The notes under the pieces were generated by a model. That model searched no databases and had not been told where the DNA came from. It saw nothing but the letters and a program-made list of their open reading frames with translations. The translations under genes and the position numbers were made by a program. 64,000 nt of DNA from an uncultured Gammaproteobacteria bacterium (lineage in GTDB: Bacteria > Patescibacteriota > Microgenomatia > Levybacterales > UBA12049): assembly GCA_964416505.1 (NCBI GenBank), contig CAYQEJ010000002.1, forward strand, positions 90,172 to 154,171, written 5' to 3'. Of this stretch, positions 1-63,383 are shown piece after piece (the stretch's first letter is position 1; each line of letters starts with the position of its first letter).

Positions 1-106
1 AAATATTGTTACTTAATGGCGGCTTCCACCTTTGATCTCGCATATCGTAATCAGGCGATACATATCCAGTGGATGCTCCCGCACCTAAAATAATTATTGG
101 TATCAT
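1..106 (-). CDS. Hypothetical protein, N-terminal fragment; gene runs off the window start
   Basis: On the minus strand an ATG at 104-106 opens a frame (MIPIIILGAGASTGYVSPDYDMRDQRWKPPLSNNI...) that stays open to position 1. Confidence 0.3.
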   Translation of the reverse strand, partial: MIPIIILGAGASTGYVSPDYDMRDQRWKPPLSNNI

Positions 107-156
107 TTGTGGAGTTGGTGTCGGGGCGGGCAAAAAATGCGGGTCTCGGCAGGAAC

Positions 157-192
157 TCTAATTAAAAGCAAATTGCAATCGCGCAATTTGCT
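157..192 (-). terminator. Rho-independent terminator downstream of the 288..755 gene
   Basis: Perfect 10-bp inverted repeat agcaaattgc/gcaatttgct with a 6-nt loop at 167-192. On the minus strand it is followed by the T-run ttttaatt. Confidence 0.45.
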
Positions 193-287
193 TTGCGTAT
201 TATACTAAATATAACTAAAAAAATCAATACTATAAACGTATCAAACCTTAGCACAATGAGAGTAAAAGTTACTTTGGAGAGAATATT

Positions 288-755
288 CTAGAGCCATTGG
301 GCTACGCCGCCGTGACCACTACACGTTCCTTGCCTATGTTGACTATAGCTATATGAGCCATCGCGACATTGAGCTGTAGCATCTGAAGGAACAGAATCAG
401 AATATGAGGGTGATTTAACTTTATTTCCATCAACATTTATATAATATTTATCTTCTGATCCCGTATTTGATACTGGAGCTGATGTAGGAATAAATACTGT
501 CGGCTTTGGTGTAAAAATAGGCTTGGAAGTAGGCGCAGGAGAAGGTGTGACTGTCGGTGTTGGTGTATTTGTCGCAGTTGGCGACACAGTAACAATTGGC
601 GTAGGACTAACTTGATCTGAAGTTCCTTTTACAAAAGTTTTAGGTGAAGTGGCTAATGCAATTCCAGAAGAAACAATTAAAAAAGTTATAAAACCAACTA
701 TGTATGGTCTTAAAGATTTTTTTGGTGAAAAATTATTTTGAATTTCTTCTGCCAT
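288..755 (-). CDS. Membrane-anchored secreted protein with Thr/Pro-rich linker and a C-terminal DUF3761-like domain
   Basis: An internal Met (MAEEIQNN...) is followed by one hydrophobic TM/signal segment and a TPTP-rich linker. The C-terminus CRDGSYSYSQHRQGTCSGHGGVAQWL matches the conserved DUF3761 tail. The upstream part of the track ORF (to 887) overlaps gene 803..1369, and a promoter at 778-806 supports the 755 start. Confidence 0.55.
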   Translation of the reverse strand: MAEEIQNNFSPKKSLRPYIVGFITFLIVSSGIALATSPKTFVKGTSDQVSPTPIVTVSPTATNTPTPTVTPSPAPTSKPIFTPKPTVFIPTSAPVSNTGSEDKYYINVDGNKVKSPSYSDSVPSDATAQCRDGSYSYSQHRQGTCSGHGGVAQWL

Positions 756-777
756 TTTATTAGGCAGAATCAAGGCG

Positions 778-806
778 ATCTTACTCCCCTTTTGCTTTTG
801 TGTCAA
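778..806 (-). promoter_or_regulatory. Sigma70-type promoter (TTGACA-17-TAAGAT) for gene 288..755
   Basis: Reverse complement reads TTGACAcaaaagcaaaaggggagTAAGAT, about 20 nt upstream of the ATG at 755. Confidence 0.4.
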
Positions 807-1369
807 GGCTGGGGGTCTTCTGGCAGAACTCTCTTTTCCTGCGCTACTACATCCATAGAAGCATATCTTGGCATTCTTTCCTGACACAACCTAAGAATAA
901 TAGATGGAGGGATAATTGCTGGTGCTAAAAGACGGACTGACTGATCTGATACAGGTCTACCGAATCCTGAAAAAACAAGTATCCCCGCTGGTAATCCACT
1001 TCCTATCAAAGCAGGCGCCGCCCAGCCAAGCATTTGCTCTCCAGTTACAGGCATGTCTGCAAAATCTATGGCCTCTTTTGCCAAAGCATCCTCAGAAAGC
1101 GTAAGGCCTGCAACCTCTCTATAAAAATCTTCTGGGTTGAGATCATCTGCTGTACTAGCTTGAAGTTCTACATCAATTTCTCCGCTTGGTAATGGGACAG
1201 GAAAAACTGCTAGAGCTCCTGTAGGATCAATTTCTTCTTCCACCTCTCCCCTCACAAGCCATTCGGCAAAAAGTTCTCTGTGTCCTCCGAACATTAATCT
1301 TTCAAGATTTGCTTTTCTGAGATGTCTCAATTGCTCTTCTGTTAATATTTGTCTTTCTGGCATTGGCAT
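803..1369 (-). CDS. Hypothetical protein (188 aa)
   Basis: Long ORF with a consensus promoter upstream (TTGACTTT-N17-TATAAT, rc of 1381-1416). No recognisable domain. Confidence 0.5.
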   Translation of the reverse strand: MPMPERQILTEEQLRHLRKANLERLMFGGHRELFAEWLVRGEVEEEIDPTGALAVFPVPLPSGEIDVELQASTADDLNPEDFYREVAGLTLSEDALAKEAIDFADMPVTGEQMLGWAAPALIGSGLPAGILVFSGFGRPVSDQSVRLLAPAIIPPSIILRLCQERMPRYASMDVVAQEKRVLPEDPQP

Positions 1370-1416
1370 AACGAGACATTATAGGTTGTTTTGCTTCAAA
1401 GTCAAATGGAAATTAG

Positions 1417-1998
1417 TTATTCGTGGGGAATATAACCCTGGTCAATTCCAGCATTTTCCATAGCAACCCAAGCTTGCCTAAGAAGTGGGTTAAGCATATC
1501 CGCATAATAATAATGAATAGCGTCTACGCCTAGTGGATGATTTGGAGCAGAAAGTAACTCATCGGACATTGCCTTTTTTCTTTCTCTTGAATACTGATCC
1601 TGGTAGAAAATGTCTCGATGAAACCCCATTAAACCTGAAAGCACTTCTCTTTCTCCTAAAACAGAATCTATATCTGCCAAAAGTACTCCATTACTAGCTA
1701 AAAAATTCGTCCAAGAATCTCCCCACTGTGCAGCTTGAGAAATCATAACTCCAACTTCTCCATATCTTGCATTTGGATCTAGTCTTTGAGCTCTTAAGCC
1801 ATAAAATAATTCAACAAAATTATGACCATAAAGCGCAAAAGGCCTTACGGCTTCTGCCCTTTCTTCTTTTGTTGTTGCTTTAAGAATAGCTTGGATTCTC
1901 GGATCTTCTACCGGAACTGTTGGTAAAGATTTGGCGAGACCAATAAAGTATTCAAATCGTTCCTCAAAGCTCGCTTCTCCTGTATCTGAATCTGTCAT
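1417..1998 (-). CDS. Hypothetical protein (193 aa)
   Basis: ORF with a consensus promoter at 2006-2033. Confidence 0.5.
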   Translation of the reverse strand: MTDSDTGEASFEERFEYFIGLAKSLPTVPVEDPRIQAILKATTKEERAEAVRPFALYGHNFVELFYGLRAQRLDPNARYGEVGVMISQAAQWGDSWTNFLASNGVLLADIDSVLGEREVLSGLMGFHRDIFYQDQYSRERKKAMSDELLSAPNHPLGVDAIHYYYADMLNPLLRQAWVAMENAGIDQGYIPHE

Positions 1999-2005
1999 TT
2001 CGCGG

Positions 2006-2033
2006 ATTATATACTCTTTTCTCCTGAAGTCAA
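2006..2033 (-). promoter_or_regulatory. Sigma70 promoter TTGACTTC-N-TATATAAT
   Basis: Reverse complement of the plus strand reads ...TTGACTTCaggagaaaagagTATATAATc, immediately upstream of the start at 1998. Confidence 0.45.
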
Positions 2034-2040
2034 ATGGAAA

Positions 2041-2448
2041 TTATTTGGCGCGCATGCGGTTATTTCGAGGATTGTGCTCTAACTCTACTAATCCCAAAGC
2101 TTCCATAAGTGGAGGCATATACATCCCAAATCTTCCGCGAAGTCCTTTTTTTAACCCATACCATCCGCCAATGGGATTTTCTGAAGATCTAGCCCATGCT
2201 TCTACTGTTCCTTCTTTGGCCGGCTTTTGCTCGTCAGCACTCCCCAGCTCCATCCAATCTCCATGTTTTTTTAACATTTCATGAAGATCTTTAATCGCGC
2301 GCAAATCATAACTAAGAGTAGTTGATCCTACTACACAAACAATCGCAGGAGGCGTGAGTGATTCATCTTTATACATGAGATATTCACTTGTTCCCGGAGG
2401 AGTCTTAAGTTTCCAAGGATTTTCGCGAGTTCCTAAATCTTTTGTCAT
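2041..2448 (-). CDS. Hypothetical protein (135 aa)
   Basis: ORF preceded by TTGACT-17-TAGATT (rc of 2449-2490). Confidence 0.5.
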   Translation of the reverse strand: MTKDLGTRENPWKLKTPPGTSEYLMYKDESLTPPAIVCVVGSTTLSYDLRAIKDLHEMLKKHGDWMELGSADEQKPAKEGTVEAWARSSENPIGGWYGLKKGLRGRFGMYMPPLMEALGLVELEHNPRNNRMRAK

Positions 2449-2490
2449 AAAACTTAATCTACTATCCTTTTACTTTTAAGTCAACAAGAT

Positions 2491-2832
2491 TTAAGGATTT
2501 TGTGACTTTTGGGAAACTTCTTCTATTTGTCTCATTGTGAGATCGTAATAAACTTTTTCTTTTCTATGCTGAATACCGACAATTGAGGCAAAACCTAAAC
2601 CCACAAGCATAACTCCGGTGACTACATTTACATCATTTCTAGGAATGCTCATAAGATCGCTTATTCCTTCCTGCGTCATGACTGCTAAACCCAAAGAAAA
2701 TAATGTGAAAGCCGCACCCTGTAAATGATCCAGTTTTCTTTTTTCTGCATATTCAGGTTTGCCTACATCCCCTGGCATAATATATGCATTGGCGTTGTAA
2801 ATTTGACCTGATTCCTTATTTCTAAAACCCAT
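2491..2832 (-). CDS. Small two-TM membrane protein, paralogue A
   Basis: 113 aa with two hydrophobic helices. Shares the motif PGDVGKPEY...KLDHLQG...GLAVMTQE with the neighbouring gene 2898..3224. Confidence 0.55.
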   Translation of the reverse strand: MGFRNKESGQIYNANAYIMPGDVGKPEYAEKRKLDHLQGAAFTLFSLGLAVMTQEGISDLMSIPRNDVNVVTGVMLVGLGFASIVGIQHRKEKVYYDLTMRQIEEVSQKSQNP

Positions 2833-2838
2833 CTAAAT

Positions 2839-2866
2839 ATTATAGGCCTTTTTATTATGAAGTCAA
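2839..2866 (-). promoter_or_regulatory. Sigma70 promoter TTGACTTC-16-TATAAT
   Basis: -10 attata at 2839-2844 and -35 agtcaa at 2861-2866, both read on the minus strand. The start codon is at 2830-2832. Confidence 0.5.
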
Positions 2867-2897
2867 GAAATATTTAGCTTAATGTTTAAGGATTATC

Positions 2898-3224
2898 TTA
2901 TTGATCCGGGGCTCCTGAGTTAAATCTTTCGCGTACTCGACGCGCAACTAATTCACTAAAAGAATTACCCTGCATCTCATGTCCTGCTGCAAACAAAGAA
3001 GCACCAGCTACAGCTATAGCTGCACCAACTGAAAGAGCTACTACACTTGCTGGACGACTAGCTACATCGTTAAGCATCTCCTGAGTGACTGTAGCAAGAC
3101 CAATTACAAACATACTAACACCTATCCCCTGCATATGATCCAGAGCTCTTATATCTCTATATTCTGGAGTTCCAACATCTTCTGGTCTCAAAAGAGCATG
3201 CATGTTTTCTCTATTTGCACTCAT
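2898..3224 (-). CDS. Small two-TM membrane protein, paralogue B
   Basis: 108 aa with PEDVGTPEYRDIRALDHMQG...GLATVTQE. Tandem paralogue of 2491..2832, with its own TTGACTTC...TATAAT promoter. Confidence 0.55.
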   Translation of the reverse strand: MSANRENMHALLRPEDVGTPEYRDIRALDHMQGIGVSMFVIGLATVTQEMLNDVASRPASVVALSVGAAIAVAGASLFAAGHEMQGNSFSELVARRVRERFNSGAPDQ

Positions 3225-3298
3225 GCACGCATTATACTTTCTTTTAGTTTGAAGTCAAGAATAGAAGAAATGGTAAACTTAAATGCTAGAATTAAAAA

Positions 3299-3520
3299 AT
3301 GAAAATATCCATAATTGCTCATCCGAATTCAAAGAATGAAAAAGTTGAAGAAGACCTTCTGGGCACACTCCATGTTTACGTAAATGAAGCTCCCTTAGAT
3401 GGTCGTGCAAATGCCGCAATCATAAATAAACTTTCCAATTTTTTTAAAATCCCTAGATCCAAGATAATTCTTTTAAAAGGAGAAAAATCCAAAAATAAAA
3501 TTTTTGAAATATTGAAATAA
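3299..3520 (+). CDS. DUF167/YggU-like small protein
   Basis: 73 aa. The pattern HVYVNEAPLDGRANAAIINKLSNFFKIPRSKIILLKGEKSKNK resembles the YggU family (..A.P..GKAN..L...LA..L....S.I.I..G..SR.K). Confidence 0.45.
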   Translation: MKISIIAHPNSKNEKVEEDLLGTLHVYVNEAPLDGRANAAIINKLSNFFKIPRSKIILLKGEKSKNKIFEILK

Positions 3521-3522
3521 TT

Positions 3523-4053
3523 CTATTTTCCGAAAGTGGCGGTGACTTCTGGTGGCTGAGGAATTCCAAAATGCGCAAGCGTTCCCCTACTTAACCCTTC
3601 ATGATGAGCTTCATGCGCTCTCATATCCTGAAGAACTGAAAAACCAGATAAACCTGGCTGAGAGTAAGGGATATCTACTCTTCTTCCCCAATTTGCAGGA
3701 TTCCTAAAAACTCTTTCAAGTCCCGCTGTTCCAGTGTCATATAAAGCTAAGAGTTCTTCTCGAGAAAGTGTGGAAAGATCTGGCAATTGTTCTCTTTCTT
3801 CAGTCTCAAAAGCTCTTAATCTCACATCAGCATGTTTTACTTGATGCTCCAAATATGTTCTTTGAGCAGCCACATCTACTCCAACTACTTCTCCAAACTG
3901 AGCCTCACTTGTCGCGGCATAAGCTGTTCTATTTGCAGTTCTTAATCCTAAAAGCATGTCCACCGATCTATTTATTTCAAGAGCTAATGCCTCTGGGATA
4001 ACCAATGGTTCTCGGGGCGAAGTTGATTCAGTTCTTTCTGCTGCCATAAGCAA
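3523..4053 (-). CDS. Hypothetical protein, possibly DinB/YfiT-like helical-bundle metal-binding protein
   Basis: 176 aa. The His-rich C-terminal motif MRAHEAHHEG is weakly reminiscent of the DinB_2 superfamily. Consensus promoter TTGACT-16-TATAAT upstream. Confidence 0.35.
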   Translation of the reverse strand: MLMAAERTESTSPREPLVIPEALALEINRSVDMLLGLRTANRTAYAATSEAQFGEVVGVDVAAQRTYLEHQVKHADVRLRAFETEEREQLPDLSTLSREELLALYDTGTAGLERVFRNPANWGRRVDIPYSQPGLSGFSVLQDMRAHEAHHEGLSRGTLAHFGIPQPPEVTATFGK

Positions 4054-4085
4054 ATTATACCTTCTTTTTCCTATCAGTCAAGAAA

Positions 4086-4412
4086 CTATGCTAAGAATCT
4101 CTGAGCATAATCTAAAAATTGACTATTTTCAAATCCTTCAAAATGCGGAGATTTTTTAAGATTCACCAAAGTTGCTCTAAGCTCTGCTGGTGCATGATCA
4201 CCGCTTATTGCATTTTGAATCATTTTACAAACTGCGCTACCTGATCTTTCAAAATGTGCAGCTAAAAGTGCCAATGCCTTCTTATCATTATTATTGACTG
4301 CTTCCTGATATTCTTTTGGATACATTGCTGCAATTGCACTTTCTCTTGAAGCATGCGTCAGCAAACCATCAGCTGTTGTTGCGAATATTATCTCCATAAA
4401 CCTTCTTTGCAC
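4086..4412 (-). CDS. Hypothetical protein (108 aa)
   Basis: ORF with no promoter of its own. It is probably co-transcribed with 4511..5977. Confidence 0.45.
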   Translation of the reverse strand: MQRRFMEIIFATTADGLLTHASRESAIAAMYPKEYQEAVNNNDKKALALLAAHFERSGSAVCKMIQNAISGDHAPAELRATLVNLKKSPHFEGFENSQFLDYAQRFLA

Positions 4413-4510
4413 ATCTGTTAATCTATCAACTTTTTTATAAGCTACCTCTTTATTATGATGACCATCTGTTTCAGGTTTTGGCGCTTTAGTATTTCTTTCA
4501 GGTAATCCAG

Positions 4511-5977
4511 CTACTCCTCTTTTCTGGCAAGAAGAGCAGGAAGTGTTGTTTGCCTAGACATAATTAAACCCACTTCAGCGGGACTAAGATCAGATGGATA
4601 ACCAAACCGCATAAGACCAGCAGCTAATTCTTGAGCATGCTTTTTTTGCTGAAGATTTAAACTTCCCGCACCTCTTTGATCTAAAGCAGCCTTCGCTCTT
4701 ATCCTTTCATAAATAAAAGGAGTCAAAAATCTGGAAACATATTCATCAGCAGCCTTATCTCTCTCATCAGAAGACAAATCAGAGACTTTTGAACCCAACA
4801 AGCTTAAAGCAATATCCCTAAGACTGACATGGATTGGCTCCCGTTGATCATTCATTTCCAAAACTGCTTGTATTATTTTTCTATTAGCTTCTGCTTCTCT
4901 GCGCATCTCCGCTTCAGGATCAGGTACATCTACTCTACTCGGAGCAGGCGAAGCAATGTGAAAGTCTTTTCCTTGAACTGGTTTTAATCCAAACATTCCA
5001 TTTCTTGGATTCTGAACTGATTCAGCTCGCGTTCTACTCAGATCAACTATAATAATTGGGTCTTGAGAAGATAAGCCTCCCGCTTCTTGCTCTTCCCGTG
5101 GATTTCTTAGTATGCTTCTTAAGAAAGTTCTATTGGTGCCTTTTCTAATTCGAATTCTGTCTAAAACTTCTGGGGAAATATTCTCGGGATAACCCTGTGA
5201 AGCTAAATATTCAGTAAAACGCCCCACCTGCTTTAATCTATCTTCAGTTAGACTAGAAGGATCTACTCTGGAAATTTCCAAGTCTCTAATTAAATCTTTT
5301 GTAAAATCACCAATTACCCTAAGCGCATTTCCAAATTGCTGAAATGACTCTGGGGTACCCTTAGGCGGCAACTCACCAGAAAGGATAGCACTTACTGCAT
5401 AAGCGAATTTCCTATACATCAGTCCTCTTCTGTCTCGATCTAAACCAAAAACAGCTTCAATAATTTGTTTTTCCCTAGAAGAAATTTCTAGACTTGCTGT
5501 TCCTTCGAAACTAGCGACTCCTGGAGATGCTACAGCCAAATCCTCATCGTCAGAGAATCCATCCGGCAAGACAACTGGATCATCAAAAAAAGTATCGGGA
5601 CTATCTGGTAATGCAAAAGGGTCTGGCTCATCATCCGGCGTCAAAGCGGTAGGGAGCGCATCTGCAGCCTGTGTAAAAACTAAATCTCCTTCCGATTCTC
5701 CGCCTTTATCTTTAGGCTCAAGTTTAATAGGGTCAAATAAATCTTCTACTGAAATTGGATCTAAGCCCAAACCCATCCTCGCAAATGCGTCCTGAATTAG
5801 ACTTAATCCAGTATAAACATTTCCGCTTTCGCTTAATATTATCTGGTGTCTTCTGGTTGCATCAACTACCGCTTGAGAATCACCTACTGCAAGAGCTTCG
5901 TCAATTCTCCCGCGCGCAGTATCAGCATGCTCTGACAACATACCCTGACTTACTTCTTTAAACCTGCCAAGTGCCAT
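4511..5977 (-). CDS. Large acidic hypothetical protein (488 aa)
   Basis: Long ORF with a D/E/P-rich middle segment. Consensus promoter at 5986-6013. Confidence 0.5.
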   Translation of the reverse strand: MALGRFKEVSQGMLSEHADTARGRIDEALAVGDSQAVVDATRRHQIILSESGNVYTGLSLIQDAFARMGLGLDPISVEDLFDPIKLEPKDKGGESEGDLVFTQAADALPTALTPDDEPDPFALPDSPDTFFDDPVVLPDGFSDDEDLAVASPGVASFEGTASLEISSREKQIIEAVFGLDRDRRGLMYRKFAYAVSAILSGELPPKGTPESFQQFGNALRVIGDFTKDLIRDLEISRVDPSSLTEDRLKQVGRFTEYLASQGYPENISPEVLDRIRIRKGTNRTFLRSILRNPREEQEAGGLSSQDPIIIVDLSRTRAESVQNPRNGMFGLKPVQGKDFHIASPAPSRVDVPDPEAEMRREAEANRKIIQAVLEMNDQREPIHVSLRDIALSLLGSKVSDLSSDERDKAADEYVSRFLTPFIYERIRAKAALDQRGAGSLNLQQKKHAQELAAGLMRFGYPSDLSPAEVGLIMSRQTTLPALLARKEE

Positions 5978-5985
5978 AGCTTGGG

Positions 5986-6013
5986 ATTATATACTTTTTC
6001 ATTGAGGAGTCAA
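5986..6013 (-). promoter_or_regulatory. Sigma70 promoter TTGACTCC-N-TATATAAT
   Basis: Reverse complement reads atattgactcctcaatgaaaaagTATATAATccc, upstream of the ATG at 5977. Confidence 0.45.
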
Positions 6014-6015
6014 TA

Positions 6016-6606
6016 TTATTTATTTGTGGAATATTTTTTACCAATTTTCGAAAGAATTAGAAAACTTAAAACACAGCAAATTAAAAATATATATAGAGGA
6101 AAGCCATAAGTCGCAAAATTCCACTCTTTAATAGTTAAAAGAGTAATCACAGATGCTATTCCTGGTGCCACAAATCCGAATGCACTTTCACTTTCTGGAT
6201 CACGGAAAGATTTAATTACAGTTGGTATGGCAGCCAATAAATCTGAAAGAATACTAAATAAAATCGCTATATTTCCTACTCCAGTTAAGAGCCAAAGCAT
6301 AAGACCTAAAATAGAAAGACCGCCAAAGAGATAATCTCTTTTGTCTATTTTCCAATAAGCTTTTTTATTTACAAAGGAAGCAAAAAATATTAATAGTGGA
6401 TCAAGACCTACAAAAAGAGTAAGTAGTTTTTGAGGTCCTTCCACTTGATCAAGCTGTGCTGCAAATGCAATAAGCGGAACTACTCCCCACAAAAACCATG
6501 TAACTCGATTGGGCTTAGCTTTTCCTTGAATGGTTTTTATAAAATATCCCGCACTCCCCAAAAAAGTAATTATTAAACCCAAATAGACAAAGTTCTCATT
6601 AAGCAT
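6016..6606 (-). CDS. Polytopic membrane protein, unknown function
   Basis: 196 aa with five or six hydrophobic helices. Confidence 0.5.
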   Translation of the reverse strand: MLNENFVYLGLIITFLGSAGYFIKTIQGKAKPNRVTWFLWGVVPLIAFAAQLDQVEGPQKLLTLFVGLDPLLIFFASFVNKKAYWKIDKRDYLFGGLSILGLMLWLLTGVGNIAILFSILSDLLAAIPTVIKSFRDPESESAFGFVAPGIASVITLLTIKEWNFATYGFPLYIFLICCVLSFLILSKIGKKYSTNK

Positions 6607-6648
6607 AAAAAGATTATGTCAACTTTCTTACACAAAATAAACGACTAG

Positions 6649-7272
6649 TTACTCAAGAGGTTTTTCTACTATTAATAGTTCTGTTCCCCTTACAAATCTC
6701 GGTATAAAACTTGAAGCGACAAAAATATTCTCTTCTACTGCCATTTTGACAAATAAATCCATATCTCTTCCATCTGTCTTTAAATCCTTACCATGATGAA
6801 TTATTGCTCTTCCTCCAGGTTTCAATACTCTTCTTATTTCCCTAATTCCCCTTAGCTGAGCCATCTTTTTCAACCAAATGAAAACAAATGCAGAAAAAGC
6901 AAAATCCTGGCTATTATCTGGAAGAGGAATATCTTCTACGCTACCTAACACAGTGGTTAAACCAGCTGGATTATCCAAAACCTGATGAATTAAATCCAGA
7001 TTTGTCATATGAAGATTTTCACCATATCTATCAACTAGTTCTCTTGACGCAGATGATTTATATCCTCCACCTATCTCTAAAGCATTCACTCTTTGCCCAC
7101 TTGCGACTAACCGATCTAAATTATAAGTAACCTGTTTTCCAAGCGTAATATCTATAGAAAAAAATGGTCTATTGGTAAGCTGCGTAAACCCCGCCTCAGT
7201 GGCTAAAAGTTCTCTTTTTTCAGAAAGAGTAGCTCCAGGAACCATTCTATATTTTGGTCTTTCAGTTGCCAT
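6649..7272 (-). CDS. Class I SAM-dependent methyltransferase, paralogue 1
   Basis: Motif I LEIGGG and post-I/II patterns (VLKPGGRAII). Roughly 35-40% identical by eye to gene 8085..8711. Confidence 0.65.
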   Translation of the reverse strand: MATERPKYRMVPGATLSEKRELLATEAGFTQLTNRPFFSIDITLGKQVTYNLDRLVASGQRVNALEIGGGYKSSASRELVDRYGENLHMTNLDLIHQVLDNPAGLTTVLGSVEDIPLPDNSQDFAFSAFVFIWLKKMAQLRGIREIRRVLKPGGRAIIHHGKDLKTDGRDMDLFVKMAVEENIFVASSFIPRFVRGTELLIVEKPLE

Positions 7273-7352
7273 GACGAGAAATTATATATTATTATAGGTC
7301 TAAATTCAAACTTACACGAAGTCATGAAATACTTAAATGCTATAATTTCGTT

Positions 7353-8111
7353 ATGAAAAAAGTAATAGCTATCGGCGGCGGAGAAATTGGAAGAGATGGA
7401 TATCAAATTGAAACTAGAAAAATTGACCAGGAAATCATAAAACTCTCCGGTAAAAAATCTCCAAAAATTCTTTTTATCCCTACTGCTTCAAGTGACTCCA
7501 AAGGTTATATAAAAAATTTTGAAGATTATTTTGGTAAAGAACTAAAGTGCATTACTGATATTTTATTTTTAAATAAAAATATTAAAAATGATGAGATTAA
7601 AGAAAAAATTTTTAGCGCTGATATTATCTATGTTGGCGGAGGAAACACTTTTAGAATGCTAAGGGCCTGGAAGAGATTTGGAGTCGACAAGTTCCTCAAA
7701 CAAGCGTGGGAAAATGGAATAGTAATCGCAGGACTTAGTGCTGGAGCAATCTGTTGGTTTTCATATGGACATAGTGATTCAAGAAGATTTAAATCAAAAA
7801 ATGTTTCTTGGGATTTTATAAAAGTTACAGGACTTGGATGGTTCCCTTTTATTTTCTGTCCACATTATCATTTTGAAAAAAGAGAAGAAAATTTTCAAAA
7901 ACTAATAAAAAGAGATGGCGGAATAGGACTCGCAATGGATAATAAAACTGCAATAGAAATAGTAGATGATAAATTTAGAATTTTAAAATCAGATGATAGT
8001 GCAAAAGCTTACAAAATTACGAGAGACAAAAAGGATTTAAAAATTGAAGAATTAGAATGCGAAGATTTTAAACCCCTGGAAAATCTAAGTTCTGTGATAA
8101 GGCTTAAATAA
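7353..8111 (+). CDS. Peptidase S51 (dipeptidase E/cyanophycinase-like) family protein
   Basis: KILFIPTAS..., IYVGGGNTFRML and AGLSAGAICWF (nucleophile Ser in GxSAG) are typical of the S51/class-I glutamine amidotransferase-like fold. Confidence 0.6.
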   Translation: MKKVIAIGGGEIGRDGYQIETRKIDQEIIKLSGKKSPKILFIPTASSDSKGYIKNFEDYFGKELKCITDILFLNKNIKNDEIKEKIFSADIIYVGGGNTFRMLRAWKRFGVDKFLKQAWENGIVIAGLSAGAICWFSYGHSDSRRFKSKNVSWDFIKVTGLGWFPFIFCPHYHFEKREENFQKLIKRDGGIGLAMDNKTAIEIVDDKFRILKSDDSAKAYKITRDKKDLKIEELECEDFKPLENLSSVIRLK

Positions 8112-8711
8112 ATATAAGATGGGAAATTCAGAACTCTCAACACTTCCCACTTCTCTACCATAAAATAAATTTGATCGTAAACCCATAGATGAGATTGCGC
8201 CTCTTTCATTCTTATAAACATAACGATCAGATCCGTAAAAAATTGCAGCGGTTCCACCCGGCTTGAGAATTCTAGAAACTTCTCCAATCGCCTTCATTCT
8301 TTGAGGATCAGTTAAACAATTAAAAACAAATGATGAATATGCGAGATCTTTACTTTCATCAGCTACAGGCAATTGCTGAGCTAATCCTAAAATCTTTCTT
8401 ACTCCTTCCGGAGAAGGGGTATCTGGAAAGACTGGATTTAAATTTGTCACATTTACCATATCTCCATATAAATTCTTTAATTCCAAAGCTGCTCTAGACT
8501 GCTCTCCTCCACCAATATCTAAAATTTCTATAGGGTCTATCGATCTTACTATTCTTCGAGGTAAATTTAAAGAAATATAGTGACCTAATATGTCATCTAC
8601 TTCTAAAAAAGTTCTATTAGTAATAGGGGTAGTTCTCCCATCAGGAGTTTTTACTACAACATCATAGGAGCAACCTTCTAATATTTGCATTCCCAACCTA
8701 TCCTTAATCAT
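8085..8711 (-). CDS. Class I SAM-dependent methyltransferase, paralogue 2
   Basis: LDIGGGEQS motif I and ILKPGGTAAI. Paralogue of 6649..7272 with a near-identical promoter-proximal sequence (gaattatatattattataggtc). Confidence 0.65.
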   Translation of the reverse strand: MIKDRLGMQILEGCSYDVVVKTPDGRTTPITNRTFLEVDDILGHYISLNLPRRIVRSIDPIEILDIGGGEQSRAALELKNLYGDMVNVTNLNPVFPDTPSPEGVRKILGLAQQLPVADESKDLAYSSFVFNCLTDPQRMKAIGEVSRILKPGGTAAIFYGSDRYVYKNERGAISSMGLRSNLFYGREVGSVESSEFPILYLFKPYHRT

Positions 8712-8956
8712 CGGGGAATTATATATTATTATAGGTCCAAAGACAATTTACTGAAATTAAGAAATTGAATCTTTTTAAGCTTTTTTTGGGCGGAAAGGCA
8801 AGATTTCCCCTGTAGATATGGTTGCCGGAACAGGAGGTCTTCTCCTTGAAGGATGACCTGGTTTTATTTGTCCGATATTAAAACCTTCTGGAATTCTTGG
8901 TGAACTATTTTCCTGATTTCCATTTCCTTCTGACATAAGTTAAGTATACTATAAAT

Positions 8957-9451
8957 TTAATCAGTTCCAAGATTTACATAAGAAGCATCACTTGGATCAA
9001 GCGCTCTTCTAATCCTAGCTCTATTATCACTAGTTTCTGAATCAATTATTACTTTTGTCGAAGAATCATTTAACGGTTCTAAAATTCTATAGGAAGGATT
9101 ATCCCGTGTTGTACGAATTTGTCCTTCACTCATTAGAAGAATTTCATTTCCCACAAAATCTTTTAATCCACTAGGTTCTTCATGTGGGTCTCCTATGGGA
9201 ACTAAGAGTAAATCTACTTTTTCTCCTGCTACCTGACCGTCAACATAAACATTAACTACCTGCCCCACCAACATGGTTTGAGCTCCATCAAATATTACTC
9301 TAGTTTTAGCATTTATATCTGGAAGAATTTGAACAATTGATCCTACTACTTCTCTTTGGGCTGATGTAAGAAGTCTTGCGACTTTTTCCTGCTTAACTAA
9401 CTCTCTTTGCTTTCCTCTAAATTGCCCTAAAGCTTCTATAAGTGCGGCCAT
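8957..9451 (-). CDS. Hypothetical protein (164 aa)
   Basis: ORF preceded by TTGACTCT-17-TATCTT. Confidence 0.5.
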   Translation of the reverse strand: MAALIEALGQFRGKQRELVKQEKVARLLTSAQREVVGSIVQILPDINAKTRVIFDGAQTMLVGQVVNVYVDGQVAGEKVDLLLVPIGDPHEEPSGLKDFVGNEILLMSEGQIRTTRDNPSYRILEPLNDSSTKVIIDSETSDNRARIRRALDPSDASYVNLGTD

Positions 9452-9512
9452 TTAATTCGAAGATACTCTTTTCCCTAAAAAGAGTCAATTATTTTAAAGC
9501 TTTGGAGTACTT

Positions 9513-9875
9513 TTATGGGGTTAAAGCTTGTCGCGCCTTCTGTTCCATACTTCTAATGTTTGCCAAATTAACCGGATCCATTCTTCCATGGTCCATTACT
9601 GATAATACTAATCTAGCAGCTGCATGAGTAACACTCATATTTCCTGCTTCAAAAAAACTAGTCACCGCGCCGCTTGCGTGCAACTCCCTGCTCACTTGAT
9701 AGCTAGGATGTGTTGCAGAAAATGCTTTAAAAAATAAAGCTCCTGCCTGCATCATTCCATCTTTAAAATGTGCATGCATTCCTACTTCTTTTGCTCTTAA
9801 AGCATCTGCAAATTTCGTCTGAGCTTCTAAAGCATAATCAACTCCCCTTCTAGATCCTTCTTTATGTATTTTCAT
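9513..9875 (-). CDS. Hypothetical protein (120 aa)
   Basis: ORF preceded by TTGACG-16-TATAAT (rc of 9876-9905). Confidence 0.45.
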   Translation of the reverse strand: MKIHKEGSRRGVDYALEAQTKFADALRAKEVGMHAHFKDGMMQAGALFFKAFSATHPSYQVSRELHASGAVTSFFEAGNMSVTHAAARLVLSVMDHGRMDPVNLANIRSMEQKARQALTP

Positions 9876-9905
9876 AATTTTATTATATAAGCAATTTCTT
9901 AATCG

Positions 9906-11069
9906 TCAATTAGTACTTTTCTGAGATCTAAATAGTTTTATATAAACAAATAGATTGCTTACCTGAAAAAATTGCAAAATCAGGATTGCTTGCACAGGAG
10001 ATAATTTGTCTGCAATAAGTCCAATTGAAAATGCTACAAATGCAAAAAATAAACTTCCAACAAATGAGTCGAGTGATCCCATTGTTGCTCTTTGTTCTTT
10101 TTTAAATTCTTTTTGCATAAGAGAATTTTTTGCAACAACTGTGGTTCCGAAAAATAAAGAGGTTGTGGACATTAGAATCGGAGTTAATACTGTTGGGTAA
10201 ATAGTTGCGACTACAGTTATAAATCTACTCCAACTATTTCCTGCCAAAAGCATTTTAAGTTCTCCAAATTTCTTAATAGTTTTTCCACTAAAATGAAAAC
10301 TGGTTGCTGCTCCAAAATAAGATATTATTTTTGCGATTGGTATAGCCCACGCAGGCCAAACCATCGAATAAACAGCGGACTGAAATTGAAAAGTTGTTTC
10401 ACCAAAACCGTATCCAAAAATTGAAGAGAGACTTAGGAGTCTTAATTTTGGATTATGTAAAAAACCTAAGAATGCTTCCCTGATGTGATTATAAATATTT
10501 CCACTTTTCTCTGAATGAATCTTTGGCTCTACAAAATAAAATGAGATTATTAAGCAGATTAATTGAGGAATAACTGAGAGCCAAACAAGCATTGAAAAAG
10601 TCCCTTTTATCAATAAAACCGCTCCAATAGCTGCAGAAATTCCTAGAGCAATTTGTGACATTTTACTAATTTTTCCATAGAATTCTGCAAAACGATCCTC
10701 CTCATTTTTTTCCGCTAAAGAATCGTAGAGCATTGCATCATTATTTCCGCTATAAAAAGCAGTGGAAAGTCCCATAAATAATGACCCTATTATTAGGATT
10801 GAATAAGATCCTCCTATTGCATAGAATACTGAAGAGATAAAAGCAGAAGCAGTACCCATAATTACTGTTTTTCTCCTACCTATTCTGTCAGAGAAAATTC
10901 CTGTTGGTACTTCAAGAGCCGCTGAGGAAACTGTTACTAAAGAAAAAACACTCATTCCTAAAGCGAAAGATCCGGTTACTTGTTGAAAATAAAGAATTGC
11001 GATGGGAGCATAAAATTTAAAATCAGTAAAAAAGCTATGCCAAGGTGCTATCTTTAAATTTCTGTTCAC
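9906..11069 (-). CDS. MFS transporter
   Basis: 387 aa with about 12 TM helices. The FSDRIGRRK loop motif between TM2 and TM3 is characteristic of the MFS. Confidence 0.75.
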   Translation of the reverse strand: MNRNLKIAPWHSFFTDFKFYAPIAILYFQQVTGSFALGMSVFSLVTVSSAALEVPTGIFSDRIGRRKTVIMGTASAFISSVFYAIGGSYSILIIGSLFMGLSTAFYSGNNDAMLYDSLAEKNEEDRFAEFYGKISKMSQIALGISAAIGAVLLIKGTFSMLVWLSVIPQLICLIISFYFVEPKIHSEKSGNIYNHIREAFLGFLHNPKLRLLSLSSIFGYGFGETTFQFQSAVYSMVWPAWAIPIAKIISYFGAATSFHFSGKTIKKFGELKMLLAGNSWSRFITVVATIYPTVLTPILMSTTSLFFGTTVVAKNSLMQKEFKKEQRATMGSLDSFVGSLFFAFVAFSIGLIADKLSPVQAILILQFFQVSNLFVYIKLFRSQKSTN

Positions 11070-11832: not shown

Positions 11833-13341
11833 ATGAAATTGGCATTTCAAATATTTCTAAATAAAAATATTTTTCCTATTATTTTATTATTCTTTTTTTT
11901 ATTTAATTCCTATTTACAAATAACCTCTAGCTCAATCACATTTGACGAACCAGCACATATAAAATCAGGTCTTGAATGGCTGACTACTGGTTTTTCGAAT
12001 TCAGATCCTTTCACTCCACCTTTTTCAAAAATTCCCTTTGGAATTTATCAGCTGGTTGGATTAAATTTATTTAATGATCCTTTCCTTATTATTCCTAGAT
12101 TCACAAATACAATTTTAACCGCAGTATTTTTTATTTATTTTTATTTTTTTATAAAAAAACAGTTCTCATTTAAAGTTGCAATTATTTCTCTTTTTTTATT
12201 AATAGTTGAGCCAAATGTAATCGGCTACACTCATTTGGCAACGACTGAAACAATGACTATGATTACTTTCTTTTTAGCATTTTCTCAAATTATAATTTTT
12301 ATTCAAAATAAAAAAAATAATCTATTACCTGTCATAATTTCAATAATTTTTTTATATATTACCAAGAGTGTTTTTTTGCCAGCGTTTTTACCTATCATAA
12401 TTTTAGCGAGCCCTAAATTAAAAAAAATTAAATTTAAAAAATTTTTAACTCAATCTTCTTTGGCCTTTTTAGTATTTATTATTCTTATATTACTGATATC
12501 AGGATTTCATACTTATCCTGCTTTCGCAGATAAATTTTCCATTCCCGGAGGAGGAGTGATTAACTCTACTTTTTCGGCAGTGAGTTACGTAGTAAATCCT
12601 AAATTTATTCCTACACGTCAGATAATTTTTATGGGAAATATAAGCCATGAAAGTTCTTATTTATATATTCCACTTTCATTTTTACTAAAAACTTCTCCTC
12701 ATCTGCTCATCCTGCTAACGACAGGAATATTTTTAGTATTATTCAGAAAAATAAAAGATAAAAAAATAATTTTTGGAATAATAACAATTTTTTCCTGTAT
12801 ATCTATAGTTACATTAGGAAACTATAATACTGGCGTAAGACATTTACTCCCTGCTTTCCCGATTATTTCTTTTATTTCAGGTTTTGTGTTATTAGAGTTT
12901 GTTTTGAAAAAATTAAATCTTAAAAAGATTATCATCTCTTCTCTAATTTTTATTTCAATAATAATTTGTTTAAGAAATAAGGACTCACTTGCTTATTTTA
13001 ATCCGGTAATTGGGTCTAAAGAAGGATCCAAAATATTAACAGAAAGTAATTTTGACTGGGGACAAAGCTTGCCATATCTTCAAAAAGAAAATCAGAAAAT
13101 TGATTATTTAGTATCAAGCACGAATGAAGATTCACAAAAATATGGCATATATGCGCCTCCCCTTCCCTCAGATTGGAAATTAAATATCCAAAAATTAAAT
13201 AATAAAAATATATTCATTTCAAATACTGCTTATTACAAATCAGGGCTTTATGAAGAAAATATATTCTCAATAGATAAAGCAGAATACTCCGCAAACAATA
13301 CTTATTTTATTTTTAAAATCCGGGGAAATAATCAGTTTTAA
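11833..13341 (+). CDS. Membrane glycosyltransferase, GT39/ArnT-PMT-like
   Basis: 502 aa with many TM helices. The N-terminal luminal loop carrying a DE motif (FDEPAH) and the overall architecture are typical of dolichyl/undecaprenyl-phosphate-sugar dependent GT-C enzymes. Confidence 0.55.
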   Translation: MKLAFQIFLNKNIFPIILLFFFLFNSYLQITSSSITFDEPAHIKSGLEWLTTGFSNSDPFTPPFSKIPFGIYQLVGLNLFNDPFLIIPRFTNTILTAVFFIYFYFFIKKQFSFKVAIISLFLLIVEPNVIGYTHLATTETMTMITFFLAFSQIIIFIQNKKNNLLPVIISIIFLYITKSVFLPAFLPIIILASPKLKKIKFKKFLTQSSLAFLVFIILILLISGFHTYPAFADKFSIPGGGVINSTFSAVSYVVNPKFIPTRQIIFMGNISHESSYLYIPLSFLLKTSPHLLILLTTGIFLVLFRKIKDKKIIFGIITIFSCISIVTLGNYNTGVRHLLPAFPIISFISGFVLLEFVLKKLNLKKIIISSLIFISIIICLRNKDSLAYFNPVIGSKEGSKILTESNFDWGQSLPYLQKENQKIDYLVSSTNEDSQKYGIYAPPLPSDWKLNIQKLNNKNIFISNTAYYKSGLYEENIFSIDKAEYSANNTYFIFKIRGNNQF

Positions 13342-62987: not shown

Positions 62988-63383
62988 TTGACGCAGCAAA
63001 CTTCAAAGTGTATATTTACGCACATGACAGAAGGAAGAAGACCAACCCCTACGGAAGCTATAGTAAGACACTCTACCCAAACAGCTCAGGGAGAACTAGC
63101 TGGAGCAAGTGGCATACGAACTCGCAGATGGACATTGGATTTAACACAGGATGGAGGATTACTCATTAGAAGACTTAAAAATGGAGCAACACAAAGACTA
63201 ATTACAGTTTCACCAGGAAGCCCAGATACTTTAATTCCAGAAGCAAGAATAACTGTTCTCGATTTAGAGTCAGGAAATATAATTAATGAAGGCCAAAAAC
63301 CTAGGAGAATTCTAAGAAGTGCAATTAGACAAATTTTTCCCGACAGAACCGCAATTCAAGATGAATCAAACAGAACTCTCTAG
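62988..63383 (+). CDS. Hypothetical protein (compositionally distinct) between zwf and pgl
   Basis: 131-aa ORF on the opposite strand in the 400-bp gap. R/T/Q-rich with no known domain. A non-coding RNA is an alternative (see findings). Confidence 0.3.
   Translation: MTQQTSKCIFTHMTEGRRPTPTEAIVRHSTQTAQGELAGASGIRTRRWTLDLTQDGGLLIRRLKNGATQRLITVSPGSPDTLIPEARITVLDLESGNIINEGQKPRRILRSAIRQIFPDRTAIQDESNRTL

What the first reader, a model, noticed from the sequence alone, without database searches (positions are those of the whole stretch)
1..9905. 10-kb island of individually promoted, compositionally distinct genes of unknown function
About 15 genes, nearly all minus-strand, lack operon structure. 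Almost every gene is preceded by its own near-consensus promoter (rc TTGACT[T/C]C, 16-17 nt spacer, TATAAT or TATATAAT; typical plus-strand signature gaagtcaaga...attata). The encoded proteins are A/G/R/P/T/V-rich and K/N/I-poor, giving visibly higher G+C than the pur/housekeeping genes. The island contains a DUF3761-like secreted protein, tandem two-TM paralogues, a duplicated methyltransferase pair, and DinB-like and DUF167 proteins. No mobility gene is present. This looks like an accessory region whose function (stress, defence or host interaction) is not deducible from homology.
Basis: partly seen in the sequence, partly recalled or inferred. Interest (0 to 1): 0.6.

Follow-up and report, generated by a model that had tools for sequence, protein, structure and literature searches.

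The report
Strain-variable array of self-promoted leaderless genes
This 10-kb stretch is a real accessory region of a small low-GC (probably candidate-phyla-radiation) bacterium, made of single genes that each carry their own promoter placed so the transcript starts at the ATG. Individual genes are swapped in and out between closely related strains, but what most of them do remains unknown.

Summary
Positions 288-9905 carry 17 ORFs (16 genes, 14 on the minus strand) with no operon structure. Nine genes match TTGAC-N17/18-TATAAT-like-N6-8-ATG ending exactly on their start codon (0.11 matches expected in the whole 64 kb).

Two refinements matter:
- **Leaderless layout.** The -10 box sits 6-8 nt before the ATG and there is no Shine-Dalgarno sequence. 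First genes of operons elsewhere in the window, and related contigs, show the same layout. A leaderless gene needs its own promoter, which explains the missing operons.
- **Composition.** The higher G+C lies only in codon positions 1 and 2 (A/R/P-rich, K/I/N-poor proteins). GC3, synonymous codon usage and tetranucleotide signature match the host, so this is not a recent import from a high-GC donor.

Contigs from strains 89-95% identical keep the flanks and most genes. They lack g14 and carry unrelated self-promoted genes in place of g12, g3, g1 and g7-g8. Adjacent genes differ up to 6-fold in dS.

Most proteins are near-orphans under purifying selection (dN/dS 0.06-0.23). g8 is a DinB-fold protein, g4 is DUF6855, and g9 is a frameshifted tail of g10. 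There are no phage, defence, integron or mobility signals.

Verdict: a flexible island of autonomous leaderless cassettes, of moderate interest.

The parts
1..106 (-). Left flank: start of a gene that runs off the window (MIPIIILGAGASTG..., Rossmann-like N-terminus). It marks the probable left border of the array.
   Evidence: Sequence read. Composition and motif judged by inspection only.
288..755 (-). g1: membrane-anchored protein with a Thr/Pro-rich linker and a DUF3761 domain. Promoter at 778-806 (TTGACA-N17-TAAGAT) with a roughly 22-nt leader. A related MAG contig carries other cassettes in this slot.
   Evidence: Pfam DUF3761 3.8e-25. Promoter. L093 has 209-aa, 215-aa and 132-aa genes here instead.
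803..1369 (-). g2: 188-aa orphan. Promoter at 1378-1405. Its TGA stop codon lies inside the -35 hexamer of the g1 promoter.
   Evidence: No Pfam, PHROG, PADLOC or NCBIfam hit. 89% nt-identical copy in L093, dN/dS 0.15. Junction shown.
1417..1998 (-). g3: 193-aa orphan. Promoter at 2006-2033. This slot varies between strains.
   Evidence: One homologue in 5.8e9 proteins (51% identity, different context beside a Phd/ParE pair in L086). Replaced by a 110-aa membrane-protein gene in L093, L094, L096 and apparently in L097-L099, where only its 5' end is on the contig.
2041..2448 (-). g4: DUF6855 protein. Promoter at 2456-2484 (TTGACT-N17-TAGATT).
   Evidence: Pfam 9.3e-72. At least 578 loci in genome contigs at 73-85% identity across many phyla, best hit a Ca. 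Levyibacteriota MAG. dN/dS 0.06.
2491..2832 (-). g5: 113-aa two-TM orphan. Promoter at 2839-2866.
   Evidence: Paralogue of g6. dS of 0.066 to L096, against 0.39 for g6 and 0.24 for g4 next to it.
2898..3224 (-). g6: 108-aa two-TM paralogue of g5. Promoter at 3231-3258.
   Evidence: Homology with L094/L097 starts exactly at its -35 hexamer.
3299..3520 (+). g7: DUF167 (YggU-like) protein with host-like composition, divergent from g6.
   Evidence: Pfam 1.1e-17. GC 0.30. Absent upstream of g6 in L094/L097.
3523..4047 (-). g8: DinB/YfiT-superfamily four-helix-bundle protein from a rare subfamily. Promoter at 4054-4081.
   Evidence: 13 hits in 1.84e9 representatives. Profile vs PDB DinB-like 3dka 1.8e-7. 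AF2 pLDDT 90, Foldseek DR0053 2e-5. Homologues on other low-GC contigs carry the same promoter type in other contexts.
4086..4412 (-). g9: C-terminal fragment of g10, split off by a 1-nt deletion (GGG to GG) near 4511-4516. Not an independent gene.
   Evidence: P0002 (630 aa, related strain) is g10+g9 in one frame. Frames shown. The Logan contig L001 has the same sequence.
4511..5977 (-). g10: 488-aa acidic orphan. Promoter at 5986-6013.
   Evidence: Only a self-hit in 5.8e9 proteins. Nothing in genome, metagenome or viral contigs. dN/dS 0.50 over the N-terminal 149 codons.
6016..6606 (-). g11: 196-aa multi-pass membrane protein with host-like composition. Conserved in related strains.
   Evidence: dN/dS 0.12.
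6649..7272 (-). g12: class-I SAM methyltransferase. Promoter at 7281-7309. This slot varies between strains.
   Evidence: Pfam Methyltransf_11 1.9e-12. L002/L003 carry an unrelated 268-aa gene with its own TTGACT-N16-TATAAT-N7-ATG here.
7353..8111 (+). g13: Peptidase_S51 (dipeptidase E-like) with host-like composition. Conserved in related strains.
   Evidence: Pfam 4.3e-52. 93% nt identity in L002.
8085..8711 (-). g14: second methyltransferase, 36% identical to g12. Promoter at 8718-8746. Absent from related strains. Its 3' end overlaps the 3' end of g13 by 27 nt.
   Evidence: L002/L003 have 18 bp in place of window 8078-8774, and their S51 C-terminus differs.
8775..8936 (-). g15: 53-aa Pro/Arg-rich orphan.
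   Evidence: Conserved in L002. dN/dS 0.23.
8957..9451 (-). g16: 164-aa orphan. Promoter at 9460-9488 (TTGACT-N17-TATCTT).
   Evidence: 45%-identical homologue in L088, 1 kb from a g8 homologue. dN/dS 0.15.
9513..9875 (-). g17: 120-aa orphan. Promoter at 9882-9909 (TTGACG-N16-TATAAT).
   Evidence: Conserved in L002-L005. dN/dS 0.10.
9906..11069 (-). Right flank: MFS transporter, conserved in all related-strain contigs.
   Evidence: Pfam MFS_1 1.3e-20. L002-L005.

Best explanation
Positions 288-9905 are a flexible, strain-variable accessory region of a small low-GC bacterium. The organism is probably a member of Patescibacteria/CPR, Microgenomates group; that assignment is an inference.

**Building block.** The region is a tandem array of autonomous single-gene cassettes. 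Each cassette is a sigma-70-type promoter followed directly by an ORF with no Shine-Dalgarno sequence. The promoter has the form TTGAC(T/A), a 16-17-nt spacer whose 3' half is an A-rich purine tract (AAAAGAG-like), and TATAAT. The -10 box ends 6-8 nt before the ATG.

**Expression (inferred).** Transcription should start at or within 1-2 nt of the A of the start codon, giving leaderless mRNAs that ribosomes load from the 5' end. A gene expressed this way cannot be an internal operon gene. Every cassette therefore needs its own promoter, and the 38-65-nt intergenic spacers are essentially nothing but promoter.

**Turnover (shown).** Cassettes are gained, lost and replaced one at a time between closely related strains. 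Junctions fall in the inter-cassette promoter region, and adjacent cassettes have different divergence histories.

**Origin (inferred).** The proteins belong to rare families restricted to similar low-GC genomes. Their A/R/P-rich composition is a property of the proteins, not a trace of a high-GC donor.

**Function (guess).** The content is heterogeneous: a DinB-fold metalloenzyme, DUF6855, two SAM methyltransferases, an S51 peptidase, small membrane and surface proteins, and several orphans. My best guess is a niche or stress-adaptation toolbox, with the DinB and DUF6855 genes pointing to chemical or thiol stress. This is weakly supported.
For: **Promoter-ATG layout.**: 21 cassettes from at least 7 contigs share -35, spacer motif, -10 and a 6-8-nt gap, and 18 of 21 have AAAG in the spacer.

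**Distance typical of leaderless starts.** A 6-8-nt gap between Pribnow box and start is the published signature of leaderless transcription in GeneMarkS-2 group C genomes (PMC6028130, read).

**Genome-wide use.** First genes of operons at 11833, 13313, 34401, 38001 and 48814 show the same layout. So do related contigs L006, L086 and L088-L091.

**No operons.** (Fisher p=0.0015).

**Host-like synonymous composition.**

**Strain variation.**
- g14 is absent and g12 is replaced by a 268-aa gene in L002/L003.
- g3 is replaced by a 110-aa gene in L093, L094, L096 and apparently L097-L099.
- g7-g8 are replaced upstream of g6 in L094/L097.
- g1 is replaced by three other cassettes in L093.

**Mosaic divergence.** dS is 0.066 for g5, against 0.39 for g6 and 0.24 for g4 on the same contig.

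**Cassettes travel with their promoters.**
- The g8 homologue in L088 is 87% identical in protein, while a backbone gene on the same contig (homologue of window 13313-14818) is 66% identical.
- Alignment of five g8 loci shows homology running from the -35 to the stop codon only.
- The g3 homologue carries the same promoter type beside a toxin-antitoxin pair.

**Real genes.** dN/dS is 0.06-0.23 for 11 island genes.

**Rarity.**

**All five g8-family loci read lie on 34-40% G+C contigs.**
Against: - No transcription start site has been mapped, so 'leaderless' is inferred from spacing alone.
- The related-strain contigs are short Logan assemblies (1-7 kb) from metagenomes. Linkage across the whole island in any one strain is not shown, and assembly breaks could mimic some variation.
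- Several resident genes (g7, g11, g13) look like ordinary core genes, so 'island' overstates homogeneity.
- Breakpoints cannot be placed exactly. All cassette promoters resemble each other, so apparent junctions at the -35 may partly reflect functional convergence. Four of eight junctions are not at the -35.
- The taxonomic assignment rests on the best hit of one transfer-prone gene.
- The function proposed is guilt by association only.
Confidence: 0.7

Rival explanations
1. This is a classical horizontally acquired genomic island, imported en bloc and recently from a higher-GC donor.
For: - G+C is 0.39-0.44 in genes g2-g10, against about 0.33 elsewhere.
- GC3 of the left ten genes is slightly raised (0.246 vs 0.218, p=0.04).
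- DUF6855 and DUF3761 are common in high-GC phyla.
Against: - GC3 over the whole island is not different (p=0.34). RSCU r=0.958 is within controls, and the tetranucleotide signature is not unique.
- Shared cassettes diverge in step with the flanking MFS gene.
- The g8 and g3 relatives whose encoding contigs were read all lie on 34-40% G+C contigs.
- There is no integrase, tRNA or direct-repeat border.
- Variation is gene by gene, not as a block.
Confidence: 0.06
2. This is a prophage remnant or an anti-phage defence island.
For: Small orphan genes in one orientation with strain-level variability are typical of both. One g3 homologue sits beside a Phd/ParE pair.
Against: - No PHROGs or PADLOC hit for ten orphans at E<=0.01.
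- No relatives in 2.9 million IMG/VR contigs for g2, g10, g16, the g8 family or DUF6855.
- No blastn match to 50,697 phage or 72,556 plasmid records.
Confidence: 0.06
3. This is an ordinary chromosomal stretch of lineage-specific hypothetical genes. The promoter regularity merely reflects the genome's general leaderless habit, and nothing sets the region apart.
For: - Leaderless-type starts occur throughout the window.
- A similar lone cassette lies at 63024-63383, and similar ones are scattered among housekeeping genes in L006.
- The oligonucleotide signature is unremarkable.
Against: - Nine of the eleven full promoter-ATG matches cluster in 15% of the window.
- At least five slots differ among strains that are 89-95% identical in the shared parts.
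- Amino-acid composition differs significantly.
Confidence: 0.12
4. The TATAAT-like box 6-8 nt upstream of the ATG is a non-Shine-Dalgarno translation signal on leadered or polycistronic mRNA, not a promoter element.
For: A/T-rich motifs at this distance act as ribosome-binding signals in some phyla (GeneMarkS-2 group B; PMC6028130). No terminators separate the genes.
Against: A -35 hexamer TTGAC(T/A) lies at a fixed 16-17 nt upstream in 21 of 21 cassettes. That is expected of a promoter and not of a ribosome-binding site. Canonical GGAGG sites exist before other genes in the window (15712, 52401, 46219), so the ribosome uses Shine-Dalgarno pairing where it is present.
Confidence: 0.05

Closest known systems
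Leaderless transcription units of GeneMarkS-2 'group C' bacteria (Actinobacteria, Deinococcus-Thermus)
   Same: The Pribnow box lies 6-8 nt from the start codon of first genes in operons, with no Shine-Dalgarno sequence. Leaderless and SD-led genes are mixed in one genome (PMC6028130; window).
   Different: - Here the genome is low-GC and probably CPR. My searches found no paper reporting leaderless starts in that group.
- The leaderless genes are packed into a tandem array with near-consensus -35 and -10 boxes and a shared purine-rich spacer motif.
Flexible (hypervariable) genomic islands of bacterial pangenomes, i.e. strain-variable content at a conserved chromosomal locus (own knowledge)
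   Same: Flanks are conserved (the MFS gene and the backbone beyond it) while gene content differs in strains 89-95% identical. Most content is of unknown function. No dedicated mobility gene is present.
   Different: The variation unit is a single promoter-plus-ORF module of 0.4-0.9 kb rather than a multi-gene block. Junctions lie in the promoters. Synonymous composition is fully host-like.
Integron gene-cassette arrays
   Same: A tandem, mostly co-oriented array of single-gene units of unknown function that differ between strains.
   Different: There are no attC-like inverted repeats and no integrase among the Pfam hits in the window. Every unit has its own promoter, whereas integron cassettes are usually promoterless and expressed from Pc.
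DinB/YfiT superfamily (for g8 only)
   Same: Four-helix-bundle fold with a conserved H-x3-H motif (H145, H149). Foldseek hits to DR0053, YfiT and BH3987.
   Different: It is a very small subfamily: 13 hits in 1.84 billion representatives. It falls below Pfam's gathering threshold. No thiol cofactor pathway was examined.

Membership tests
Leaderless gene starts (GeneMarkS-2 group C type) | -10 (Pribnow) box ending about 6-8 nt upstream of the start codon | tested here: met
   13 of 17 island genes. 21 of 21 cassettes in the window and related contigs have a gap of 6-8 nt.
Leaderless gene starts (GeneMarkS-2 group C type) | No Shine-Dalgarno sequence between promoter and start | tested here: met
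   The 6-8 nt between -10 and ATG leave no room for one and contain no GGAG/GAGG.
Leaderless gene starts (GeneMarkS-2 group C type) | Transcript 5' end mapped at the start codon | not testable with these tools
   No transcriptome data available.
Flexible / hypervariable genomic island | Conserved flanks with different gene content in closely related strains | tested here: met
   L002/L003, L093, L094, L096 and L097 vs the window.
Classical horizontally acquired genomic island | Atypical codon usage / GC3 / oligonucleotide signature | tested here: not met
   GC3 p=0.34. RSCU r=0.958 within controls. Tetranucleotide r=0.82, equalled elsewhere in the window.
Classical horizontally acquired genomic island | Integrase/transposase, tRNA insertion site, flanking direct repeats | tested here: not met
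   No tRNA in the window. No such Pfam domain. The only repeat families are the promoters themselves. The contig to the left of position 1 could not be seen.
Integron cassette array | attC recombination sites (imperfect inverted repeats) after each cassette | tested here: not met
   Intergenic spacers of 38-65 nt are filled by the promoter. No local inverted repeats.
Integron cassette array | IntI tyrosine recombinase with attI next to the array | tested here: not met
   Absent from 1-12 kb. Sequence beyond the left edge of the window is unseen.
Prophage / phage-derived region | Homology to phage protein families or viral contigs | tested here: not met
   PHROGs gave 0 hits. IMG/VR gave 0 hits. 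The phage collection gave 0 hits.
Anti-phage defence island | Proteins matching known defence-system models | tested here: not met
   PADLOC gave 0 hits for ten proteins. The remaining seven were not scanned.
DinB superfamily (g8) | Four-helix-bundle DinB/YfiT fold | tested here: met
   AF2 pLDDT 90. Foldseek 6iz2 2e-5, 1rxq 5e-4, TM 0.66-0.79.
DinB superfamily (g8) | Metal-binding His triad | tested here: inconclusive
   H145 and H149 are invariant in 12 sequences. The expected first His (H68/H72 region) is not invariant.
DUF6855 (g4) | Score above the Pfam gathering threshold over the full model | tested here: met
   239.5 bits against a cut-off of 27, model positions 3-131 of 132.

The most novel reading that the evidence does not exclude
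The promoter itself, meaning the conserved core TTGACTTC plus the purine-rich spacer shared by all cassettes, may be the recombination site of a dedicated cassette-exchange system. If so, 'promoter + leaderless ORF' modules would be a previously undescribed kind of mobile gene cassette in CPR bacteria. They would be expression-ready on arrival because they need neither a host promoter nor Shine-Dalgarno pairing. This would be functionally analogous to integrons but with a different site, and with an unidentified recombinase or a microhomology mechanism.

Compatible observations:
- Four of eight mapped junctions coincide with the -35 hexamer.
- One stop codon is embedded in the next -35.
- Island cassettes prefer TTGACT, whereas promoters elsewhere in the window mostly have TTGACA.
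- Members of the same cassette families (268-aa family, g8, g3, g16) turn up in different slots and different genomes, always with the same promoter type.
Probability: 0.12. Interest if true: 0.8.

Novelty: new variant of a known kind. Interest (0 to 1): 0.42.

Why it matters

**What this locus offers.**
- It gives a compact, testable picture: genes packaged as self-sufficient promoter-ATG modules that are leaderless (so independent of ribosome-binding-site compatibility) and swapped singly between strains.
- If transcript mapping confirms it, gene callers and start-site models for these lineages should allow for leaderless starts.
- Such modules would be convenient natural parts for expressing genes in CPR-like hosts.

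**A general caution.** A raised G+C confined to codon positions 1 and 2 is not evidence of foreign origin.

**Limits.** The functional content remains unknown, and flexible islands as such are common. That limits the significance.

Tried and rejected
**Searches that failed or found nothing.**
- Concatenating nine orphan proteins into one query for the search for homologous proteins returned nothing, not even self-hits, and wasted a search.
- g10 found no relative in genome contigs, JGI metagenome contigs or IMG/VR. The window's own contig is not in those collections, so the sequence left of position 1 could not be recovered.
- Exact look-ups of g2, g3 and g4 found nothing on record.
- The g8-family scan of metagenome contigs only re-found L090.
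- PHROGs, PADLOC and NCBIfam gave no hits for ten orphans. Pfam at E<=1 gave only noise.
- blastn of 1-8000 against phages and plasmids gave no match.
- PDB sequence searches for g8 (single sequence), g10 and g4 gave nothing. The one exception was a match of DUF6855 to a de novo designed TIM barrel, which sums four weak repeats and is an artefact.

**Structure prediction.**
- The AF2 model of g3 from two sequences had pLDDT 47 and is unusable.

**Literature.** Searches for leaderless genes in CPR, Patescibacteria or Saccharibacteria, for DUF6855, and for CPR genomic islands found nothing pertinent.

**Ideas rejected.**
- A high-GC donor: GC3, RSCU and the low G+C of all homologue contexts argue against it.
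- An integron: no attC sites and no integrase.
- Spurious ORFs: dN/dS is 0.06-0.23.
- An assembly chimera: related contigs run continuously from the backbone into the array.

Full report
**1. What is there**

The window is about 33% G+C. It carries a purine-biosynthesis operon (purM, purL, purD, purF, purC, purK) at 24-35 kb. There are no tRNAs and no Rfam hits at gathering thresholds.

Positions 288-9875 hold 17 ORFs, 15 on the minus strand. An MFS transporter gene lies to the right (9906-11069). To the left, the start of a Rossmann-like gene runs off the window (1-106, minus strand).

Pfam recognises six families:
- DUF3761 (g1)
- DUF6855 (g4, 9e-72)
- DUF167 (g7)
- Methyltransf_11 (g12 and g14, 36% identical to each other)
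- Peptidase_S51 (g13)

The other eleven ORFs have no Pfam hit. Ten orphans also have no hit in PHROGs, PADLOC or NCBIfam.

**2. The promoter observation is real and more specific than described**

- TTGACT-N15-19-TATAAT occurs six times in 64 kb, all on the minus strand between 1378 and 6013 (0.26 expected).
- In every case the -10 box ends 6-8 nt before the ATG.
- The composite pattern TTGAC-N17/18-TA[TGA][AC][AT]T-N6-8-ATG has 11 matches in the window (Markov expectation 0.11). Nine lie in the island, and each ends on an annotated island start codon.
- There is no room for, and no trace of, a Shine-Dalgarno sequence.

This distance is the published signature of leaderless transcription in 'group C' bacteria (PMC6028130). 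The layout is not confined to the island. First genes of operons at 11833, 13313, 34401, 38001 and 48814 have it. A few other genes (15712, 46219, 52401) have canonical GGAGG sites instead.

Same-strand gaps in the island are 20-98 nt and never overlap. Outside the island, half the gaps are 2 nt or less (Fisher p=0.0015).

My inference is that a leaderless gene must sit at a transcript's 5' end. Each such gene therefore needs its own promoter, which by itself explains the absence of operon structure.

**3. Composition**

- The island is richer in G+C, but only at codon positions 1 and 2 (p=0.008 and 8e-5). GC3 is 0.230 vs 0.218 (p=0.34).
- Synonymous codon usage correlates with the rest of the window at r=0.958. 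This lies just inside the range of random subsets of host genes (mean 0.973, 5th percentile 0.956).
- Tetranucleotide usage (r=0.82) is at the low end but is matched by windows at 40-52 kb.
- The signal is amino-acid composition: more A, R and P, and fewer K, I and N.
- All five g8-family loci read, and the single g3 homologue, lie on 34-40% G+C contigs. The composition is therefore intrinsic to these protein families and not a residue of a high-GC donor.

**4. Are the orphans real genes, and how rare are they?**

Against related-strain contigs, dN/dS is 0.06-0.23 for g2, g4-g8, g11, g13 and g15-g17. These are comparable with the MFS gene at 0.04. g10 is relaxed at 0.50.

| Gene | Relatives found |
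|---|---|
| g10 | Only itself in 5.8 billion proteins |
| g3 | One homologue, 51% identical |
| g8 | 13 hits in an exhaustive HMMER scan of 1.84 billion representatives |

A profile of the g8 family hits DinB-like structures in PDB (3dka, 1.8e-7). An AF2 model (pLDDT 90) matches DinB/YfiT folds.

g9 is not a gene of its own. A 630-aa protein from a related strain is g10 and g9 in one frame, and the window has a 1-nt deletion in a G run.

**5. Relatives show cassette-by-cassette turnover**

Contigs from other samples are 89-95% identical to the window in the shared parts. They keep the order MFS-g17-g16-g15-S51-g11-g10 and g8-g7-g6-g5-g4. They differ as follows:

| Slot in the window | Related contigs | What they carry |
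|---|---|---|
| g14 | L002, L003 | Gene absent |
| g12 | L002, L003 | Unrelated 268-aa gene |
| g3 | L093, L094, L096, apparently L097-L099 | 110-aa membrane-protein gene |
| g7-g8 (upstream of g6) | L094, L097 | A 99-aa gene and a member of the 268-aa family |
| g1 | L093 | Three other genes |

Every replacement gene has its own TTGAC(T/A)-N16/17-TATAAT-N6-8-ATG. Each is A/G/R/P-rich with GC3 of 0.18-0.27.

Across 21 cassettes the promoters share the -35 and -10 boxes and also a purine-rich spacer motif (AAAAGAG-like; 18 of 21 contain AAAG).

Junctions lie in the inter-cassette spacer. Four of eight coincide with the -35 hexamer. In one case the stop codon of g2 is part of the next -35. Because all these promoters resemble each other, exact breakpoints cannot be fixed.

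Adjacent cassettes have very different synonymous divergence on one contig: g5 at 0.066, against g6 at 0.39 and g4 at 0.24. That indicates recombination at the cassette scale.

Between more distant genomes the same holds:
- The g8 homologue in L088 is 87% identical, while a backbone gene on the same contig (homologue of window 13313-14818) is 66% identical. A g16 homologue (45%) lies 1 kb away.
- Homology among five g8 loci runs from the -35 to the stop codon and no further.

**6. What it is not**

- There are no attC-like repeats; the only repeat families are the promoters.
- There is no integrase, transposase or tRNA.
- There are no relatives in IMG/VR, phage or plasmid collections.
- There is no defence-system model hit.

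**7. Function**

I can only offer weak leads. DUF6855 (g4) is 73-85% identical across Chloroflexota, Dormibacterota, Actinomycetota, Bacteroidota, Paenibacillus, cyanobacteria and CPR, with at least 578 loci. Across 64 of these loci its recurrent neighbours are ECF sigma factors, SRPBCC, YCII, ArsR and DinB proteins. Together with the DinB-fold g8, this hints at chemical or thiol stress functions for part of the array. The remaining content (methyltransferases, S51 peptidase, small membrane proteins, surface DUF3761) gives no common theme.

**8. Organism**

The closest DUF6855 copy (85%) is in a Ca. Levyibacteriota MAG of 37% G+C that shows the same leaderless promoters. This suggests, but does not prove, a Microgenomates-group CPR bacterium.

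**9. Verdict**

The added value has three parts:
- a mechanistic reading: leaderless, self-promoted cassettes;
- the demonstration that the compositional signal is protein-level only;
- direct evidence of single-cassette turnover between strains.

It is a new variant of a known kind (a flexible genomic island). Interest is moderate. A dedicated promoter-site recombination mechanism is not excluded but is unproven.

Noticed in passing
window 2041-2448; loci L006-L085: DUF6855 is extraordinarily conserved: mean column identity is 81% and copies are 73-85% identical to the window copy. It spans at least ten phyla and at least 578 loci, yet is absent from IMG/VR. Recurrent neighbours are ECF sigma factors, SRPBCC, YCII, ArsR and DinB genes. 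No paper in the library mentions the family.
   Followed up: partly
window 4413-4520: A 1-nt deletion in a G run (GAGGGAGTA to GAGGAGTA) splits a 630-aa gene into g10 and g9. The same sequence occurs in the Logan contig L001, which may derive from the same sample as the window's genome. This may be a pseudogene or a phase-variable tract.
   Followed up: partly
window 801-806: The TGA stop codon of g2 is embedded in the -35 hexamer (TTGACA) of the g1 promoter. The same stop-in-TTGAC arrangement occurs at two junctions in L093.
   Followed up: partly
window 63024-63383 (+): A lone A/G/R/P-rich 119-aa orphan with the full TTGACG-N17-TATATT-N7-ATG layout sits between housekeeping-type genes, far from the island. 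Similar single cassettes lie among argH, argG, metK and rpoB in the Levyibacteriota contig L006.
   Followed up: partly
window 165-227: A promoter-like site (TTGATT-N17-TATAAT, 227-199, minus strand) is followed at once by a perfect 12-bp palindrome with a 6-nt loop (AAAGCAAATTGC-GCGATT-GCAATTTGCTTT, 194-165). It lies upstream of the Rossmann-like gene at the left edge. It could be an operator or a 5' hairpin.
   Followed up: no
L091 4405-4920; L090 878-1396: A g8-family DinB-like gene sits on the opposite strand between rplA and rplJ, inside the conserved secE-nusG-rplKAJL cluster. L090 also has a partial opposite-strand ORF directly downstream whose DNA aligns with the rplA end of L091, which suggests the same context in a second, distantly related genome.
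   Followed up: partly
window 3264-3305 and 7318-7359: The 5' regions of the two plus-strand, host-like genes (g7 DUF167 and g13 S51) share a 42-nt stretch at 74% identity. It includes the -10 box and the ATGAAAA start. Each is divergent from a minus-strand cassette promoter.
   Followed up: no
window 38001-39575 (-): A 524-aa protein has a Sigma70_r4 domain in its middle (residues 249-300) and no other recognised domain. It has a leaderless-type start (TATAAT, then 6 nt, then ATG). It may be an unusual sigma-related regulator.
   Followed up: no
L086 18-42, 591-616, 1761-1790: There are three copies in 2 kb of a promoter-like repeat, TTGACA-N-(C)GAAAAGGGGAG-TAA. They flank a Phd/ParE pair and the g3 homologue. 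The g1 promoter in the window (TTGACAcaaaagcaaaaggggagTAAGAT) is of the same type.
   Followed up: partly
window 8078-8111 vs L002 3877-3900: The presence of g14 changes the last ~7 residues (and the length, 252 vs 248 aa) of the convergent S51 peptidase (...ENLSSVIRLK vs ...SKIAET). The cassette insertion or deletion therefore remodelled the neighbouring gene's 3' end.
   Followed up: partly
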